From an uncultured virus (IMG/VR IMGVR_UViG_3300037189_010778) (taxonomy: Duplodnaviria; Heunggongvirae; Uroviricota; Caudoviricetes): DNA of 20,000 nt. Position 1 is the stretch's first letter; every line of letters starts with the position of its first letter. Below, one piece after another: positions 10,094-15,670 of this stretch. The stretch lies in IMG/VR virus record IMGVR_UViG_3300037189_010778, positions 55,818-75,817 of that record, one strand, 5' to 3'. The notes under the pieces are model-generated. The model made no database searches. It saw only the letters and a list, made by a program, of their open reading frames with translations, and had not been told where the DNA came from. Both the position numbers and the translations under genes were made by a program.

Positions 10094-11337
10094 TACGCTG
10101 TTTTAACATATTTTGATTTAGTATTCTCTAAATTAGTACTAATTTGTTCCAACGTTGTATTAAGTTGAGAAGCTACTGCGTTTAATGGTGCTAAAGGAGC
10201 ACCAGATGGAGTACTTACTAATGTGCTACATATTTGCATAAAAGACTGTAAATTTTGTATTAATGTCTTTAATAATGAAACTGTTGTATCACCTAGTAAT
10301 ACTGATTCCGTAGCATCTTTAGACCCTAAATATACATTAGTTGATTGTATTATAGTATCAGGGGCATCAATATTAACTGATGATACTGCATTTAAATTAA
10401 TAGATTTTTTAGAACTTAATAATATATGATCCTGAGTAGTATTAAATACTAGTCGGCCTGAATTTAGTATTATTTGTGAGCTATTAGAATATTCTTTAGG
10501 GTTAGTAGGTGCATCTGATTTATAACTTACATAACTAATACTTGAAGCTTCTAATGGTATTTTTTGAGTACTTGTACTGTATATAGAAGATAAATCTTTA
10601 TTTATATCTTCAGTAATAGGTACCCAACCCTCATCACTAGCATCTGTTGATTGTCCATTACGTATTAAGATAATTGGGTCACCATTAGTACCTATAGATG
10701 ACCAATTATTTTGTCTACCATTAACAGTAGAACCAAAACGTATACTATTACCCCATCTGCCTTCTTGTATAACATCTCCTTCAAATGGAAGAAGTGGATG
10801 TATATTAGAACGTTCTTTAAATGTTTGCCCTAAAAATATTTCAGTACTTTGATCAGTAACTCGTCTAACACTACCAGCTTGAGTTTGAGTATAATCTTTA
10901 GCTTGTGATGATGGTGGTGTATTTGGATTCTCAGGATAAGCGTTATGATGTGGATGATTCCATAATGAAACTAAACTAACATAATATGATCTAGCGGCAT
11001 TATAAGTTAATCCAATTCCAGTACTAGGTAATGAAATTAAAAATACAATTTCATTTATAAGTGGATAATTTTTAATATTAGGATATAAAGGATAAGCTAT
11101 TGAATATTGCCCTGATGTTGCTTCTAATGGATTATTAACTGCTTGATATTCTATAGCTCCTAATGAATTCCACTCTCCTAATTCTTTAAATCTTGGATGA
11201 GTACTATCTAATATAATACTTTTAATACGTACAGGTACCATTTGGTTACTTAACGCAGATAAAGTCTGCGATAAGCTAACCTGGTTTTGTACGTTTTGAG
11301 TTTTATTATATGCTTGGTATCCGTATGATTGAGGCAT
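10093..11337 (-). CDS. Baseplate hub/central spike protein (gp5/VgrG-like, no lysozyme insert evident)
   Basis: OB-fold-like N-terminus (AYPLYPNIKNYPLINEIVFLI), EGDVIQEGRWGNSIRFGST, then beta-helix-like strands (IILNSGRLVFN..DHILLSSKKSINLNAVSSVNIDA...VYLGS) and ESVLLGD. Confidence 0.7.
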   Translation of the reverse strand: MPQSYGYQAYNKTQNVQNQVSLSQTLSALSNQMVPVRIKSIILDSTHPRFKELGEWNSLGAIEYQAVNNPLEATSGQYSIAYPLYPNIKNYPLINEIVFLISLPSTGIGLTYNAARSYYVSLVSLWNHPHHNAYPENPNTPPSSQAKDYTQTQAGSVRRVTDQSTEIFLGQTFKERSNIHPLLPFEGDVIQEGRWGNSIRFGSTVNGRQNNWSSIGTNGDPIILIRNGQSTDASDEGWVPITEDINKDLSSIYSTSTQKIPLEASSISYVSYKSDAPTNPKEYSNSSQIILNSGRLVFNTTQDHILLSSKKSINLNAVSSVNIDAPDTIIQSTNVYLGSKDATESVLLGDTTVSLLKTLIQNLQSFMQICSTLVSTPSGAPLAPLNAVASQLNTTLEQISTNLENTKSKYVKTA

Positions 11338-12728: not shown

Positions 12729-13501
12729 ATATTATTCAATAAATTTTTAAGTCCCTCGGATTTTATACCTCCTAAAGCTTTAGTCTTAGGTGATCTATTT
12801 TCTTTGTTCGATTCCAATGTAATATTTTTCTTTGGCTTCTCCACATTTCCTTTAAATTTAGGTAACCATTCTCTTTCAAATTCAATCCTGGATGCCATTA
12901 AATCTGCTTGATGTAAAATATAAGGTAAAGATGTTCTTGGTTTTTGCTCTGGCATGAACGCTGTTAAGTACTTTTTATTAGATTCATCATACAATCCATC
13001 ATGGGTTTGTATAGCTACCATTTCATTAAAAGAATACTTAATATTATGAGCCTGAAGCATATATAATCCTCTATCTGGAACTGATGCAAACGCTAAATTA
13101 CTATTAAACATATAATCTTCTCCTAATTTATCTTTACGCCATTGATCGGTTTGAGGAATATATGATTCATATTGTTCATCTCCTATTTTACCTAGATCAT
13201 GATTTAAAGCTGAGAATACTAATTCTTCAGTAGAATATGTAGAACTATCTACTCCCATTTGAGCCCAAACATTATTTAATTTAAGGGCACAATCTACTAC
13301 TCTTATAACATGATCTACATATCCTCCAGGGAAAGCACTATGATATTCCTTTTTATAAGAGGCGGGCATCATCATAATACGTTCTGAGTATTTATTATAG
13401 AATCCTTTTAACTCAGACCTACGAGGTTCTGAGATGTATGCGTCTATTCGACTCATTAAAATACTCCAATTATCTTGGATTTGTTCTGCTGTTAAATTCA
13501 T
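12725..13501 (-). CDS. HD-domain metal-dependent phosphohydrolase (YhaM-like)
   Basis: Motifs YHSAFPGGYVDH...LNHDLGKIG...HDG...LHQAD give the full H..HD..H..D metal ligand set. Confidence 0.88.
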   Translation of the reverse strand: MNLTAEQIQDNWSILMSRIDAYISEPRRSELKGFYNKYSERIMMMPASYKKEYHSAFPGGYVDHVIRVVDCALKLNNVWAQMGVDSSTYSTEELVFSALNHDLGKIGDEQYESYIPQTDQWRKDKLGEDYMFNSNLAFASVPDRGLYMLQAHNIKYSFNEMVAIQTHDGLYDESNKKYLTAFMPEQKPRTSLPYILHQADLMASRIEFEREWLPKFKGNVEKPKKNITLESNKENRSPKTKALGGIKSEGLKNLLNNI

Positions 13502-13518
13502 AACTTATTAATTTTTTA

Positions 13519-13719
13519 TTAGATAGATGTGTTTAATTCTTCTCCAGTTCTAGGCTCATACTCAACGTAAGATTTAAGTTCATCTATTAACTGCTTCATA
13601 TATTCAGTTACTTCTAGATACTCATTAATGTTTCCATTACGTTTTAAAATAAAGTCTAATTTACTCAGATTTGATTCTAATCTTTCCAATTTACTTCTTA
13701 CAATTTCTCTTGATCTCAT
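13519..13719 (-). CDS. Hypothetical protein (66 aa)
   Basis: Clean ORF with A-rich leader, co-oriented with neighbours. Confidence 0.7.
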   Translation of the reverse strand: MRSREIVRSKLERLESNLSKLDFILKRNGNINEYLEVTEYMKQLIDELKSYVEYEPRTGEELNTSI

Positions 13720-14312: not shown

Positions 14313-14340
14313 AAAAAAGCACCAACATTACATTGGTGCT
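14313..14340 (-). terminator. Intrinsic terminator closing the tRNA operon
   Basis: Minus strand AGCACCAA-TGTAATG-TTGGTGCT followed by a T run, about 35 nt downstream of tRNA-Leu. Confidence 0.8.
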
Positions 14341-14456: not shown

Positions 14457-14459
14457 ATA

Positions 14460-14572
14460 TTTGCTAGGTCACCGATGCCACCTAGCGTGGAGAGTAAAGT
14501 TTTGTCTAATTTCTCTTATGAGACATAGTCGCAGGATCTCTCTTATTCTTCAACCCGAATCGGTATTAAGGT
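14460..14572 (-). ncRNA. Candidate structured RNA with possible pseudoknot
   Basis: Hairpin GCTAGGT/ACCTAGC whose loop (ATCGGT) is complementary to upstream ACCGAT; nested GAGAG/CTCTC and TGTCT/AGACA stems; bounded by tRNA-type elements. Confidence 0.45.
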
Positions 14573-14573
14573 G

Positions 14574-14660
14574 TAGTCAGGACAGGATTCGAACCTGCGA
14601 CAATATAACCAATTTTTATTGGATAGCATAAACTACTTTGCCATTACATATTACCTGACT
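14574..14660 (-). ncRNA. tRNA-like RNA 1 (87 nt, no canonical anticodon arm)
   Basis: Acceptor AGTCAGG/CCTGACT+A and T-arm GCAGG-TTCGAAT-CCTGT are intact; the interior has two short hairpins with 4-nt loops instead of D and anticodon arms. Confidence 0.75.
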
Positions 14661-14665
14661 GTGTT

Positions 14666-14791
14666 TTAAAAAACGATTAAATATACTACAGTAAAAGCAG
14701 CTGAGATCATTAAAAATGCGACTACTAGTGACATAAGATACATCTCAACTGGGTGCATTTTACTCAACATAAATTCTAGTTTCTTTTTCAT
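14666..14791 (-). CDS. Small single-pass membrane protein (41 aa; absent from ORF track)
   Basis: MKKKLEFMLSKMHPVEMYLMSLVVAFLMISAAFTVVYLIVF*; A-rich leader; fills the gap between the two tRNA-like RNAs almost exactly. Confidence 0.65.
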   Translation of the reverse strand: MKKKLEFMLSKMHPVEMYLMSLVVAFLMISAAFTVVYLIVF

Positions 14792-14801
14792 AATTTTTAT
14801 G

Positions 14802-14926
14802 CAGTCAGGACAGGATTCGAACCTGTATGTGATATCTTTCACATTATCTACTTAACCATTTAGCTCGGGATTTTCGAACTTTTTACTGTTAAGCAATTCA
14901 GCATCTACCAATTGCGCCACCTGACT
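14802..14926 (-). ncRNA. tRNA-like RNA 2 (125 nt, extended central arm)
   Basis: Acceptor AGTCAGG/CCTGACT+G, Leu/Ser-type D-arm GCG-CAATTGGTAGA-TGC, long stem TGCTTAAC/GTTAAGTA enclosing AGTTCG/CGAGCT, variable hairpin ATGTGA/TCACAT, T-arm ACAGG-TTCGAAT-CCTGT. Confidence 0.78.
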
Positions 14927-14937
14927 ATGTTCTCTTG

Positions 14938-15009
14938 TAGTCCCATCAAGAATCGAACTTGAAATAACAGCTTAGAAGGCTGTGGTTATATCCATTTAAC
15001 TATAGGACC
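14938..15009 (-). tRNA. tRNA-Arg (TCT)
   Basis: Acceptor GGTCCTA/TGGGACT+A, D-arm GTTA/TAAC, anticodon arm ACAGC-CTTCTAA-GCTGT, T-arm TCAAG-TTCGATT-CTTGA. CCA not encoded. Confidence 0.95.
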
Positions 15010-15015
15010 AATAAC

Positions 15016-15153
15016 CTACTTAGATAATGTTGTATCTGTAACTACTGTTGTAGTATCTGTTGTAGGTGTGGTGGTACTTTGTGTTCCTGTAGAACTGCAA
15101 GAAACAACAAACATTGTTGCGATCATAATCGCGGCTAAAACTACTTTTTTCAT
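15016..15153 (-). CDS. Small Thr-rich lipoprotein (45 aa; absent from ORF track)
   Basis: MKKVVLAAIMIATMFVVSC-SSTGTQSTTTPTTDTTTVVTDTTLSK*: basic N-terminus, hydrophobic core, lipobox VVSC; directly downstream of a promoter. Confidence 0.82.
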   Translation of the reverse strand: MKKVVLAAIMIATMFVVSCSSTGTQSTTTPTTDTTTVVTDTTLSK

Positions 15154-15211: not shown

Positions 15212-15670
15212 TTAAATATATCTTTTACCTATTTCTTTTATCACATCAATGGCTTCATTAATGTCTATTTTAAAGAATTCCCTATTACTATTGACCCGGT
15301 ACGAATCTAAGTATATATGGATATCATTTTCTAAGAATTCACCTTCATGACACTTAAATGCAAACTCAACTTTAAATGGTATAGGAACACCAGTAGATGC
15401 AGATATTTGTTTAGCACGTTCTTCTGGAGTTAATTTAGTAATTCCTATCTTAACTATATTAGGCATGGATTCATTAGATAAAATATATACCCAATATTTC
15501 CCTTCACCTTCTCTATGGATAGGATATTTTTTCTGATCTGTATAGTAAAAGACATAATCCCATTTTCCTTCAGAACATGGTATACGAGTAAAGTATGATG
15601 CTGGTTGCCCTAAAATATCATCTTGTGTACTTATATATTTCTCTGCTTCATATGGTGTTATATACCTCAT
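15212..15670 (-). CDS. T5orf172 / GIY-YIG superfamily protein
   Basis: WVYILSNESMPNIVKIGIT...PEERAKQIS.STGVPIPF...E..IH..L...R....REFF is the T5orf172/MUG113 signature. Confidence 0.88.
   Translation of the reverse strand: MRYITPYEAEKYISTQDDILGQPASYFTRIPCSEGKWDYVFYYTDQKKYPIHREGEGKYWVYILSNESMPNIVKIGITKLTPEERAKQISASTGVPIPFKVEFAFKCHEGEFLENDIHIYLDSYRVNSNREFFKIDINEAIDVIKEIGKRYI

What the first reader, a model, noticed from the sequence alone, without database searches (positions are those of the whole stretch)
14574..14926. Two tRNA-scaffold RNAs with identical ends and unrelated interiors
Seen: both start AGTCAGGT and end with an identical 23-nt CAGGTTCGAATCCTGTCCTGACT (plus strand 14575-14597 and 14803-14825), giving a perfect acceptor stem and T-arm. 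Their interiors differ in length (87 vs 125 nt total), share no obvious sequence, each folds into its own stems, and neither has a canonical anticodon loop. Known: the acceptor stem plus T-arm is what RNase P, RNase Z, CCA-adding enzyme and EF-Tu recognise. Inference: this is not random tRNA decay, since the ends are pristine and the interiors still pair. It looks like a constant tRNA chassis carrying variable cargo, for example decoys for anticodon nucleases or tRNA-sensing defences, stabilised antisense/guide RNAs, or processing signals.
Basis: partly seen in the sequence, partly recalled or inferred. Interest (0 to 1): 0.85.

Follow-up and report, generated by a model that had tools for sequence, protein, structure and literature searches.

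The report
Phage tRNA-frame RNAs carrying variable inserts
Two small RNA genes in this freshwater phage keep the outer frame of a leucine tRNA but carry unrelated folded inserts instead of an anticodon, and they belong to a large, undescribed phage family in which one constant frame carries well over a hundred different inserts.

Summary
Two minus-strand elements, E2 (14803-14926, 124 nt) and E1 (14575-14660, 86 nt), share AGTCAGG at the 5' end and an identical 23-mer at the 3' end (T arm plus acceptor strand). ARAGORN calls neither, and Rfam's tRNA model scores both below its threshold.

They are not a local oddity. A single phage holds 1 to 18 copies, all on one strand and often inside tRNA arrays. 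It was found in no isolate genome and no GenBank phage.

152 extracted elements carry 131 different interiors. Most keep a leucine-type D arm, U48 and an A73 discriminator.

Both window elements have relatives with compensatory changes. E1's subfamily shows 8 pairs changed on both sides (0 of 500 shuffles reach this). E2's group shows 4 such pairs.

Best reading (about 50%): a tRNA-Leu-derived frame makes the host's tRNA-processing enzymes cut out and stabilise a variable RNA arm. What the inserts do is unknown. Expression, processing and charging are untested.

Rivals are pure transcript punctuation, leucine acceptors without an anticodon, and mobile repeats.

This scan noted similar tRNA-frame RNAs on other DNA before. 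None of them shares this frame's sequence.

The parts
14803..14926 (-). E2: 124-nt tRNA-Leu-frame RNA. Acceptor 5' strand 14920-14926; leucine-type D arm 14901-14917; long arm replacing the anticodon arm 14848-14896 (9-bp stem, 7x5 internal loop, 6-bp stem 14862-14880 with 7-nt loop AAAAUCC); variable-arm hairpin 14827-14844; T arm 14810-14826; acceptor 3' strand 14803-14809.
   Evidence: Sequence; fold z = -4.3; Rfam tRNA 27.1 bits, below the cut-off of 29. In 4 homologues 99.3% of cells pair and 4 pairs changed on both sides, in the long arm and the variable-arm hairpin.
14802..14802 (-). Discriminator position of E2: G, followed by C. The homologues L200, L204 and L142 have A here.
14575..14660 (-). 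E1: 86-nt RNA with a tRNA frame but no normal D arm. Acceptor 5' strand 14654-14660; long-range helix P2, 14647-14651 with 14603-14607; D-arm-like hairpin 14623-14644 (its loop lacks GG in this copy); hairpin P3 14609-14622 (the site where relatives carry 20-40-nt inserts); T arm 14582-14598; acceptor 3' strand 14575-14581.
   Evidence: Alignment of 28 distinct subfamily members: 98.9% of cells pair, 8 pairs changed on both sides, 0 of 500 shuffles reach this. E1 itself carries the AU/AU version of P2 and GC/CG swaps in the hairpin.
14574..14574 (-). Discriminator position of E1: A, followed by C.
   Evidence: across the family A is found in 91% and the following C in 97%.
14937..15009 (-). 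Ordinary tRNA-Arg(tct), 10 nt upstream of E2 in the same transcription direction.
   Evidence: ARAGORN; Rfam 61.9 bits
14376..14456 (-). Ordinary tRNA-Leu(tag), 118 nt downstream of E1. Its acceptor stem and T arm differ from the frame.
14318..14340 (-). Intrinsic-terminator-like hairpin plus T run that closes the tRNA/element cluster.
   Evidence: 1 found; shuffles gave a mean of 0.5; fold
14666..14791 (-). 41-aa hydrophobic small ORF bracketed by E2 and E1. Its ATG lies 10 nt after E2's discriminator and its stop 5 nt before E1.

Best explanation
E1 and E2 are non-decoding RNA genes built on a frame derived from a class II leucine tRNA. They are transcribed with the neighbouring genes and tRNAs on the minus strand.

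Inferred mechanism: the frame consists of a 7-bp acceptor stem stacked on a 5-bp T arm with a canonical T loop. In most family members it also has a leucine-type D arm and U48, which close the tRNA elbow. This is what RNase P, the 3'-end trimming enzymes and the CCA-adding enzyme recognise. The host's tRNA machinery should therefore cut each element out of the precursor and leave a stable L-shaped RNA. The insert projects from where the anticodon arm, the variable arm or the D loop would be.

The insert is the variable, selected part. Each insert type is a conserved folded module, and different phages combine the same frame with different modules.

Cutting out the element also sets the ends of the small mRNAs that abut it.

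Shown here: the constant frame, the diversity of inserts, the copy numbers, the co-orientation, the covariation, and the absence from cellular isolates.

Inferred, not shown: transcription, processing, stability, and what the inserts bind. My guess for the last is host proteins or RNAs, acting as decoys or sponges.
For: Constant frame:
- 131 of 152 elements start with exactly AGTCAGG; the others differ mostly by changes that keep G.U or Watson-Crick pairing.
- When members were collected by an interior hairpin alone, 29 of 31 distinct sequences still had this acceptor stem, including compensated variants AGTCAAG/CTTGACT and AGTTAGG/CCTAACT.

Variable interior:
- 152 elements fall into 131 interior clusters. 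Lengths run from 60 to 229 nt, median 102.
- In environmental runs, contigs join the same ends across other letters (tables 5 and 5c).

Selection on the RNA:
- E1 subfamily: 98.9% of cells paired, 8 pairs changed on both sides, 0 of 500 shuffles reach this; slid controls pair in 32-39% of cells.
- E2 group: 99.3% paired, 4 pairs changed on both sides.
- Within insert types the insert is 0.90 identical, while 80-nt flanks are 0.45 and 0.36 identical (26 pairs from 12 clusters).

Context:
- Per record: 18 copies in G010, 11 in G001, 8 in G005, 5 in G002 and G007, 4 in G003, 2 exact copies in G006. In every record all copies lie on one strand.
- In G001 the elements sit among 24-25 normal tRNAs.
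- In the window the cluster ends with a terminator.

Not a host tRNA:
- Only 20 stretches were found across one genome for each of 185,579 species, all on contigs titled MAG.
- No GenBank phage covers more than 31% of an element.

Established knowledge: RNase P processes tRNA-like non-tRNA substrates, including phage antisense C4 RNA (PMC11143913, passages read).
Against: - No expression or end-mapping data exist for these elements.
- Insert folding energies as a class are no better than those of flanking DNA: 75 inserts have mean z = -0.69, flanks -0.58, p = 0.098. Many inserts may therefore be loosely structured or unconstrained.
- No insert matched any Rfam family in 55 kb of arrays.
- No antisense target was found in the phage's own 75.8 kb.
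- The insert clusters were defined by insert similarity, so the contrast between inserts and flanks is partly built in. It could also reflect recent spread of whole elements rather than selection.
- The near-invariant acceptor sequence is more than the processing enzymes are known to need, so something else may read it.
Confidence: 0.5

Rival explanations
1. Pure punctuation. The elements are only cutting marks. Like tRNAs in mitochondrial transcripts or plant mitochondrial t-elements, they let RNase P and 3'-end enzymes chop polycistronic phage transcripts into small mRNAs with defined ends. The inserts have no function of their own.
For: - The 41-aa ORF at 14666-14791 is bracketed by E2 (10 nt before its ATG) and E1 (5 nt after its stop).
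- The same bracket occurs in G007 around a different 75-aa ORF.
- In 8 loci, 9 of 50 elements have an ORF stop 2-11 nt upstream and 15 of 50 have an ATG 11-30 nt downstream. Random placement gives 1.2 and 2.6, and 0 of 500 permutations reach the observed counts.
- 23 of 40 E1-type loci have no tRNA within 3 kb, so these elements stand among protein genes.
Against: - The random-placement control ignores the general compactness of phage genomes, so the enrichment is weak evidence.
- Many elements abut each other or tRNAs with no ORF between them.
- A minimal tRNA-like hairpin or a real tRNA would do the same job.
- This model does not explain why insert stems keep pairing through double changes, or why the same insert recurs in unrelated flanks.
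Confidence: 0.17
2. Leucine acceptors without an anticodon. The frame is kept because the host LeuRS charges it, and LeuRS ignores the anticodon. The charged RNA acts off the ribosome, for example by titrating LeuRS or EF-Tu, feeding an aminoacyl-tRNA-dependent transferase, or faking the charged-tRNA pool.
For: - The D arm is of the leucine type. Compare the frame with the phages' own tRNA-Leu, and contrast it with their tRNA-Ser and tRNA-Tyr.
- Of 152 elements, 138 have A73, 126 have U48, 142 have U8, 84 have the A14-A15...G18G19...A D loop, and 74 have all four.
- For E. coli these are the leucine identity elements. The anticodon and variable arm are dispensable, and minimal tRNA-Leu molecules are still charged (PMC9976931, passages of the section 'Leucine identity').
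Against: - Half of the family (78 of 152) lacks at least one element of the set.
- E2 in this window has G73.
- E1 has no normal D arm and no GG in its D-like loop.
- The identity rules come from E. coli, not from the unknown host, which is probably a member of Bacteroidota.
- Charging was not tested.
- The variable inserts are left unexplained.
Confidence: 0.15
3. Selfish or recombination-driven repeat. The constant ends are DNA-level handles (homology for cassette exchange, or a homing-endonuclease or integration target). They spread and homogenise by gene conversion, and the RNA is incidental.
For: - Ends are identical across otherwise unrelated flanks.
- Many copies occur per genome.
- A T5orf172/GIY-YIG-like gene lies next to the window cluster.
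- An ORF inside the G010 array begins like an HNH endonuclease. This is my reading of its first 60 residues; it was not run against any family library.
- The 3' 23-mer covers the part of a tRNA gene that, from recalled knowledge, integrating elements typically use.
Against: - Compensatory changes in the T stem (3 of 5 pairs changed on both sides), in P2 and in the D-like hairpin show selection on the RNA fold, not on the DNA word.
- All copies are co-oriented with transcription.
- The 5' half is conserved as strongly as the 3' half.
Confidence: 0.1
4. Ordinary tRNA-Leu genes that carry introns or are decaying pseudogenes.
For: - The frame is leucine-like.
- ARAGORN of 152 elements as tRNAs, 8 of them Leu.
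- Many elements pass Rfam's tRNA cut-off despite their inserts.
Against: - The 31 calls scatter over 22 anticodon labels, 5 of them undetermined '???' calls and several with unusual A34 anticodons. With introns allowed, 101 calls are just as scattered.
- In E2 the positions where an anticodon loop should be are base-paired and covary: CTTAAC/GTTAAG versus CTCATC/GATGAG.
- The inserts are too short for group I introns, and no Rfam intron matched.
- Decay would not keep the ends invariant and the stems compensated.
Confidence: 0.04

Closest known systems
Bacteriophage T4 species 1 and 2 RNAs (RNAC, RNAD)
   Same: - Small non-decoding RNAs encoded in a phage tRNA cluster, co-oriented with the tRNAs (NC_000866 annotation).
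- RNAC ends with a GGTTCGAATCC T-arm hairpin closed by pairing of its two ends.
- Their function is still unknown (PMC3014915 passage; PMC9697503 passage).
   Different: - No sequence relation was seen. T4 was not among the listed rows of either blastn search (40 of 124 and 15 of 315 records were shown), and no record in either search covered more than 31% of the query.
- In the predicted fold, RNAC lacks a regular 7-bp acceptor stem.
- T4 has single copies. There is no shared frame with exchangeable inserts and no leucine-type D arm.
Engineered 'tRNA scaffold' for recombinant RNA (Ponchon and Dardel 2007; recalled. Only the search-listing abstract of PMC3401473 was seen)
   Same: Acceptor stem, T arm and D arm are kept and the anticodon arm is replaced by a foreign RNA. 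The cell then processes and stabilises the chimera as if it were a tRNA. E2 has exactly this layout.
   Different: - It is man-made.
- In the natural family, inserts also sit in the D loop and variable-arm region.
- The E1 subfamily replaces the D arm with a nested helix.
tmRNA tRNA-like domain
   Same: An acceptor stem plus T arm, with a long-range helix enclosing the rest of the molecule, as in E1's P2. It is charged by a synthetase that ignores the anticodon.
   Different: - ARAGORN's tmRNA search found none.
- Position 3:70 is U-A, not the alanine G.U.
- There is no tag reading frame.
- The elements are 60-229 nt long, whereas tmRNAs are roughly 300-400 nt (recalled).
tRNA punctuation and plant mitochondrial t-elements (PMC1920247; search listing and start of abstract only)
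   Same: tRNA-shaped, non-decoding elements next to mRNA ends that RNase P and RNase Z can cut. Small ORFs abut the elements here.
   Different: - t-elements are degenerate, single-copy relics without a shared constant frame or conserved inserts.
- No RNA ends are mapped here.
C4 antisense RNA of phages P1/P7 and other non-tRNA RNase P substrates
   Same: A phage regulatory RNA released from a precursor by RNase P through a tRNA-like fold (PMC11143913, passage and reference 222).
   Different: - C4 is one RNA with a known antisense target.
- No target was found for E1 or E2 in the available half genome.

Membership tests
Canonical decoding tRNA (Rfam RF00005) | 7-bp acceptor stem and 5-bp T arm with a T54-T55-C56-R57-A58 loop | tested here: met
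   Both elements have AGTCAGG/CCTGACT, (A/G)CAGG-TTCGAAT-CCTGT.
Canonical decoding tRNA (Rfam RF00005) | Anticodon arm: 5-bp stem and 7-nt loop with U33 and a readable anticodon | tested here: not met
   ARAGORN calls neither element. In E2 the region is a covarying 9-bp stem plus a further hairpin whose loop is AAAAUCC. In E1 there is only the short hairpin P3.
Canonical decoding tRNA (Rfam RF00005) | Score at or above Rfam's gathering threshold (29 bits) | tested here: not met
   E2 scores 27.1 bits; E1 scores 16.5 bits as a partial match. Many other family members do pass, at 31-48 bits.
Class II tRNA-Leu as a LeuRS substrate (E. coli rules, PMC9976931) | A73 discriminator | tested here: inconclusive
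   E1 has A and E2 has G. Across the family, 138 of 152 have A.
Class II tRNA-Leu as a LeuRS substrate (E. coli rules, PMC9976931) | U8:A14, A15-U48, G18G19 and A20a in the D loop; intact D-loop/T-loop contacts | tested here: inconclusive
   E2 has all of them by sequence. E1 has no normal D arm and no GG. 84 of 152 elements match the D-loop pattern and 74 of 152 have the full set.
Class II tRNA-Leu as a LeuRS substrate (E. coli rules, PMC9976931) | Actual leucylation | not testable with these tools
   Needs an enzyme assay or charged-tRNA sequencing.
T4 RNAC-like stable RNAs of phage tRNA clusters | Encoded in the tRNA cluster on the tRNA strand; not a decoder; T-arm-like 3' domain | tested here: met
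T4 RNAC-like stable RNAs of phage tRNA clusters | Sequence or structural homology to T4 RNAC | tested here: not met
   T4 was not among the listed rows of the blastn searches (40 of 124 and 15 of 315 records were shown), and no record covered more than 31% of the query. The predicted folds differ.
T4 RNAC-like stable RNAs of phage tRNA clusters | Accumulates as a stable processed RNA during infection | not testable with these tools
   No RNA run holds this stretch.
tmRNA | Alanine identity G3.U70, a tag-peptide reading frame, pseudoknots | tested here: not met
   ARAGORN finds no tmRNA. Pair 3:70 is U-A in 26 of 28 and U.G in 2 of 28.
Intron-containing tRNA | Removing one contiguous insert restores a cloverleaf with a consistent anticodon | tested here: not met
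   ARAGORN with introns allowed gives 101 calls with scattered anticodons and intron positions. Covariation pairs the would-be anticodon positions. No intron family matched in Rfam.
tRNA punctuation / t-elements | mRNA 5' or 3' ends coincide with the borders of the tRNA-like element | tested here: inconclusive
   ORFs abut the elements, but no RNA ends could be mapped.

The most novel reading that the evidence does not exclude
Freshwater phages use one tRNA-Leu-derived frame as a natural expression and stabilisation platform, the same trick as the laboratory 'tRNA scaffold'. It serves a large, fast-changing repertoire of RNA effectors such as aptamers, decoys or sponges against host defence or RNA-binding proteins. 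New inserts would be acquired and exchanged by recombination at the constant ends, and up to 18 modules are deployed per genome. This would be an RNA-level counter-defence arsenal with a cassette logic.
Probability: 0.3. Interest if true: 0.9.

Novelty: new variant of a known kind. Interest (0 to 1): 0.78.

Why it matters
Non-decoding RNAs in phage tRNA clusters have been known since T4's RNAC and RNAD. These remain unexplained after fifty years and were thought of as isolated curiosities.

Here the same kind of gene appears as a large modular family. It has one invariant frame, more than 130 insert types in the first 152 copies, and up to 18 copies per phage. It is abundant in lake metagenomes and absent from cultured phages and cellular isolates.

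This turns an anecdote into a comparative data set. Insert types can be aligned, tested for covariation, and matched to host factors.

If the frame really recruits the tRNA-processing machinery, nature anticipated the engineered tRNA scaffold, and the inserts are a ready catalogue of small RNAs that phages find worth stabilising.

It also matters for annotation. Rfam's tRNA model calls many of these elements as tRNAs, and ARAGORN gives them spurious anticodons. This inflates phage tRNA counts and codon-usage inferences.

Tried and rejected
- **Antisense targets.** The longest exact matches of the E1 and E2 interiors elsewhere in the 75.8-kb record are 11-12 nt. Shuffled interiors give 11-16 nt. 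No cis target was found in this half genome.
- **Host look-alikes of inserts.** I ran blastn of the 14.5-kb G010 array against 201 genomes of the class of one MAG that holds an element. The 150 listed matches fall on tRNAs, protein genes or the constant ends, and none falls inside an insert. Only 2 candidates per genome were scored and 142 matches were not listed, so this is a shallow negative.
- **Known RNA families as cargo.** Rfam at E <= 0.05 on 55,007 nt of arrays gave only tRNA, sub-threshold tRNA-Sec, one freshwater-1 RNA outside the elements, and antisense Plastid-ycf2 artefacts.
- **Expression.** No RNA holder is listed for the stretch. The one run labelled RNA-Seq is flagged as probably DNA and is held as contigs. 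Nothing can be said about transcription. Interiors without cover in the laid runs are likewise no finding.
- **Conserved partner gene.** In 40 E1-type loci with 3-kb flanks, the most widespread real neighbour family (a 106-aa protein just downstream) occurs in 9 of 40 loci. The two larger clusters are spurious frames across the RNA itself. Pfam and PHROGs on the window's neighbours gave a T5orf172 domain, a ClpP-like protease and an HD-type hydrolase, but nothing RNA-specific.
- **Thermodynamic structure of inserts as a class.** It is not different from flanks.
- **Cultured phage carrying the frame.** None was found. The 24/25 match in Enterococcus phage tRNA-Gln covers only the 3' end of an ordinary tRNA.
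- **Earlier notes of this scan by sequence.** None was found.
- **Literature.** Six full-text searches found no description of this family. The 2026 preprint on three bacterial tRNA-mimic families (abstract and outline read) concerns other motifs. Supplements were not consulted. One search failed on a term that was too short and was re-sent.
Full report
**What is in the window**

The window is the last 20 kb of a 75.8-kb viral record that CheckV rates 49% complete. A near-identical contig of 160.9 kb, rated 100% complete, carries the same two elements (G006). All long ORFs in the window lie on the minus strand. PHROGs and Pfam identify baseplate wedge proteins, a ClpP-like prohead protease and a T5orf172/GIY-YIG-like protein. 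This is a large tailed phage. The runs that hold parts of the stretch are labelled aquatic, lake or freshwater metagenomes.

Read on the minus strand, the order of features is as follows:
- a 45-aa lipoprotein-like ORF (15153-15016)
- 6 nt
- tRNA-Arg(tct) (15009-14937)
- 10 nt
- E2 (14926-14803)
- discriminator G plus 10 nt
- a 41-aa hydrophobic ORF (14791-14666)
- 5 nt
- E1 (14660-14575)
- 118 nt
- tRNA-Leu(tag) (14456-14376)
- a terminator-like hairpin (14340-14318)

**Checking the observation**

The 23-mer occurs exactly twice in the window and never in 200 shuffles, even with 3 mismatches allowed. Both elements begin AGTCAGG, which pairs with the terminal CCTGACT. Both carry a 5-bp T stem and a TTCGAAT loop.

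ARAGORN reports neither element. Rfam's tRNA model gives E2 27.1 bits against a cut-off of 29, skipping 68 nt where the anticodon arm belongs. E1 gets a partial 16.5 bits. Both fold better than shuffles, with z = -3.0 for E1 and -4.3 for E2.

The lengths are 86 and 124 nt. E2's interior is not wholly foreign: it keeps a D arm and a variable-arm hairpin.

**A large family, not two copies**

The own record holds only these two copies. The complete relative G006 holds the same two plus four ordinary tRNAs.

The viral-contig collection tells a different story. From these and the window I extracted 157 distinct 3' ends. For 152 of them a pairing 5' strand lies 60-229 nt upstream, median 102 nt. Four of the other 5 are cut by locus ends, and one (L114, with 137 nt held upstream) has no pairing 5' strand.

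- 131 of 152 begin with exactly AGTCAGG.
- 117 of 152 continue with T(G/A)G(C/T)(G/A).
- 88 of 152 have a strict D arm, most often with the loop GAAT(T)GGTAGA.
- The base before the T stem is T in 83%.
- The base after the acceptor stem is A in 91%, followed by C in 97%.

The interiors are extremely diverse. blastn-short groups the 152 elements into 131 clusters. Inserts sit not only in the anticodon and variable region but in some copies inside the D loop.

ARAGORN of the 152 as tRNAs, under 22 anticodon labels. Five of these labels are undetermined '???' calls and several are unusual A34 anticodons. Eight calls are Leu.

**Copy number and context**

Searching whole records with up to 3 mismatches gave the following counts:

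| Record | Copies |
|---|---|
| G010 (208 kb) | 18 |
| G001 | 11 |
| G005 | 8 |
| G002 | 5 |
| G007 | 5 |
| G003 | 4 |
| G006 | 3 (one of these is an ordinary tRNA) |
| G004 | 2 |
| G009 | 2 |
| G008 | 1 |

Within each record, all copies lie on one strand.

In G001 the elements are interspersed with 24-25 ordinary tRNAs that cover most amino acids. In G010 they alternate with tRNAs and small ORFs.

The E1-type members are often outside arrays. Only 17 of 40 such loci have any ordinary tRNA within 3 kb.

**Phage-specific**

A scan of one genome for each of 185,579 prokaryote species found 20 stretches. All are on contigs titled MAG, and many are labelled Chitinophagia, Saprospiraceae, Flavobacterium or Sediminibacterium. 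Each carries yet another interior. No isolate genome has the 23-mer, so the frame is not a host tRNA.

In 50,697 GenBank phage records, no place covers more than 31% of E2 or of a consensus-type element.

In four environmental runs from four studies, the summed contig depth over the constant ends reaches hundreds to thousands. Contigs also join these ends across other letters, which means the same frame with other inserts (tables 2, 5 and 5c).

**The frame derives from tRNA-Leu**

The D arm (TGGCGGAAT(T)GGTAGACGC) matches the pattern of the phages' own tRNA-Leu genes and of T4 tRNA-Leu. It does not match their tRNA-Ser or tRNA-Tyr. The real tRNA-Leu genes, however, have other acceptor stems and T arms, including the one in this window.

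For E. coli, the review PMC9976931 states the following (section 'Leucine identity', passages read):
- A73, the A15-U48 pair, G18G19 and A20a define leucine identity.
- The anticodon and the variable arm are dispensable.
- Minimal tRNA-Leu molecules remain substrates.

Of the 152 elements, 138 have A73, 126 have U48, 142 have U8, 84 have the D-loop pattern, and 74 have all four. E2 has the D-loop set and U48 but G73. E1 has A73 but no ordinary D arm.

**E1's subfamily**

The pattern AGTCAGGTAATRYGTAATG found 36 loci. A pattern taken only from the interior hairpin found 40 loci.

Members come in sizes of 79-86, 100-101 and 119-120 nt. These are the same frame with or without a 20- or 40-nt module at one site.

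I tested a structure with these parts on 28 distinct sequences:
- the acceptor stem
- a long-range helix, P2
- a D-arm-like hairpin whose loop usually holds GG
- a short hairpin, P3, that takes the insert
- an insert hairpin
- the T arm

The result: 98.9% of 750 cells pair. Eight pairs changed on both sides, and 0 of 500 shuffles reach this. Slid controls pair in 32-39% of cells.

E1 fits this structure through double changes. Its P2 is AUAU/AUAU where the others have AUGC/GCAU, and its hairpin has G-C and C-G where the others have U-A and G-C.

The T stem covaries freely, with 3 of 5 pairs changed on both sides. The acceptor stem does not.

Because the interior pattern does not select on the acceptor, one search is a fair test of acceptor conservation. 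There, 29 of 31 distinct sequences have the AGTCAGG-type stem, some through compensated changes. Two have a different stem.

ARAGORN calls none of the 36 elements found with the first pattern.

**E2's relatives**

Three other sequences share E2's interior: L200, L204, and L142 from a MAG contig.

On the four-sequence alignment, 99.3% of cells pair. Four pairs changed on both sides. Two are in the 9-bp stem that occupies the anticodon-arm position (CUUAAC/GUUAAG versus CUCAUC/GAUGAG). Two are in the variable-arm hairpin. With four sequences the shuffle control is weak: 4-12 of 500 shuffles reach the observed values.

A fifth variant appears in a lake-water run. It differs at 8 positions, and the five listed changes are as follows (tables 3 and 8; my mapping):
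- two in the inner hairpin, both keeping the pairs (U.G to C-G, G-C to G.U)
- two in loops
- one that breaks a pair

The would-be anticodon positions are therefore paired and under selection to stay paired. This excludes a decoder and excludes a simple intron.

**Are inserts functional in general?**

For:
- Within 12 insert types (26 pairs), inserts are 0.90 identical on average. The 80 nt upstream and downstream are 0.45 and 0.36 identical.
- Several pairs show swapped stems with conserved loops, for example L016 and L054.

Against:
- The insert types were defined by insert similarity, which biases this contrast.
- As a class, 75 inserts fold no better relative to shuffles than flanking DNA does (mean z = -0.69 versus -0.58, p = 0.098).
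- None matches an Rfam family.
- I found no targets.

I conclude that at least the insert types with relatives are selected folded modules. I cannot say the same for all inserts.

**Mechanism**

The common denominator of all members is the 12-bp acceptor/T-arm stack with a canonical T loop. Most members also have a D arm or D-like hairpin that can close the elbow.

From established knowledge of tRNA maturation, this is the part recognised by RNase P, the 3'-end nucleases and the CCA-adding enzyme. RNase P is documented to process non-tRNA substrates with such folds, including phage C4 antisense RNA (PMC11143913).

Co-orientation, array context and the terminator fit transcription as part of polycistronic precursors. 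I therefore favour a frame that secures excision and stability for a variable arm (confidence 0.5).

Excision would also free the abutting small mRNAs. The 41-aa ORF lies exactly between E2 and E1, and a different ORF is bracketed the same way in G007. In 8 loci, 9 of 50 elements have an ORF stop 2-11 nt upstream and 15 of 50 have an ATG 11-30 nt downstream, above random placement. Genome compactness makes that control lenient, so I treat punctuation as a likely by-product and keep pure punctuation as a rival (0.17).

Charging by LeuRS is plausible for about half the family but not universal, and it is doubtful for the two window copies (0.15).

A DNA-level selfish repeat is disfavoured by RNA-level covariation (0.10).

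Intron-bearing or decaying tRNA-Leu is essentially excluded (0.04).

One point remains unexplained. The acceptor-stem sequence is conserved more tightly than any known processing enzyme requires.

**Comparison with known systems and novelty**

The nearest known case is T4's RNAC and RNAD in the T4 tRNA cluster. Their roles are still unknown. RNAC shares a T-arm hairpin but has no regular acceptor stem in its predicted fold, no sequence relation that I could detect, and no modular frame.

In how it would work, the family resembles the engineered tRNA scaffold (recalled). In E1's topology it resembles the tRNA-like domain of tmRNA, but it fails tmRNA's defining features.

This scan's earlier notes describe comparable tRNA-frame RNAs in other phages. 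None shares sequence with this frame.

Six literature searches found no description of the family.

I rate it a new variant of a known kind: non-decoding tRNA-like RNAs of phages. It is distinguished by a single conserved frame, exchangeable inserts and high copy number.

Noticed in passing
window 14666-14791 (-) and 15016-15153 (-): Two very small ORFs are packed between the RNA genes. One encodes a 41-aa hydrophobic peptide lying exactly between E2 and E1. The other encodes a 45-aa lipoprotein-like peptide (signal-like start, Cys at position 19) that ends 6 nt before tRNA-Arg.
   Followed up: partly
L160:10749-10811 (+) (record G005): A match to Rfam freshwater-1 RNA (RF02979) at 70.1 bits, just under its cut-off of 72. 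It sits inside a phage tRNA array between ordinary tRNAs and is not one of the frame elements.
   Followed up: partly
L071, L172, L142 (directly upstream of frame elements): A shared motif TTGACAGCTTGGAAAGACAAGCAA(C/T)AT ends 0-2 nt before the AGTCAGG or GGTCAGG start of an element in three unrelated contigs. It looks like a promoter placed so that transcription would start at the element.
   Followed up: no
L205 reverse strand 13352-13548 (record G010): A 197-nt element whose D-loop insert itself contains a T-arm-like GTGGTTCGAATCCAT. This is a tRNA-like piece nested inside the frame.
   Followed up: no
window 15212-15670 (-): A 152-aa protein with a T5orf172 / MUG113 (GIY-YIG-like) domain lies next to the tRNA cluster. 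This recalls the SegB homing endonuclease in T4's tRNA cluster. An ORF inside the G010 array (L205 reverse strand 10206-10574) begins like an HNH endonuclease, judged by eye from its first residues and not run against any family library.
   Followed up: partly
window 14457-14574 (-): The 118-nt spacer between E1 and tRNA-Leu is covered by related contigs in three environmental runs. It ends in a 7-bp hairpin (GCUAGGU...ACCUAGC). The whole-spacer fold z is only -1.65.
   Followed up: partly
L258:3081-3401 (+) and 8 other E1-type loci: A roughly 106-aa protein (starting MIKRSKYNNKKTKVDGITFDS...) lies just downstream of the E1-type element in 9 of 40 loci. It was not annotated here.
   Followed up: no
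Enterococcus phage records, e.g. KP339049.1 53771-53795: Annotated tRNA-Gln genes of Enterococcus phages match 24 of 25 nt of the frame's T arm plus acceptor 3' strand. No frame-type 5' half was found in these records.
   Followed up: no
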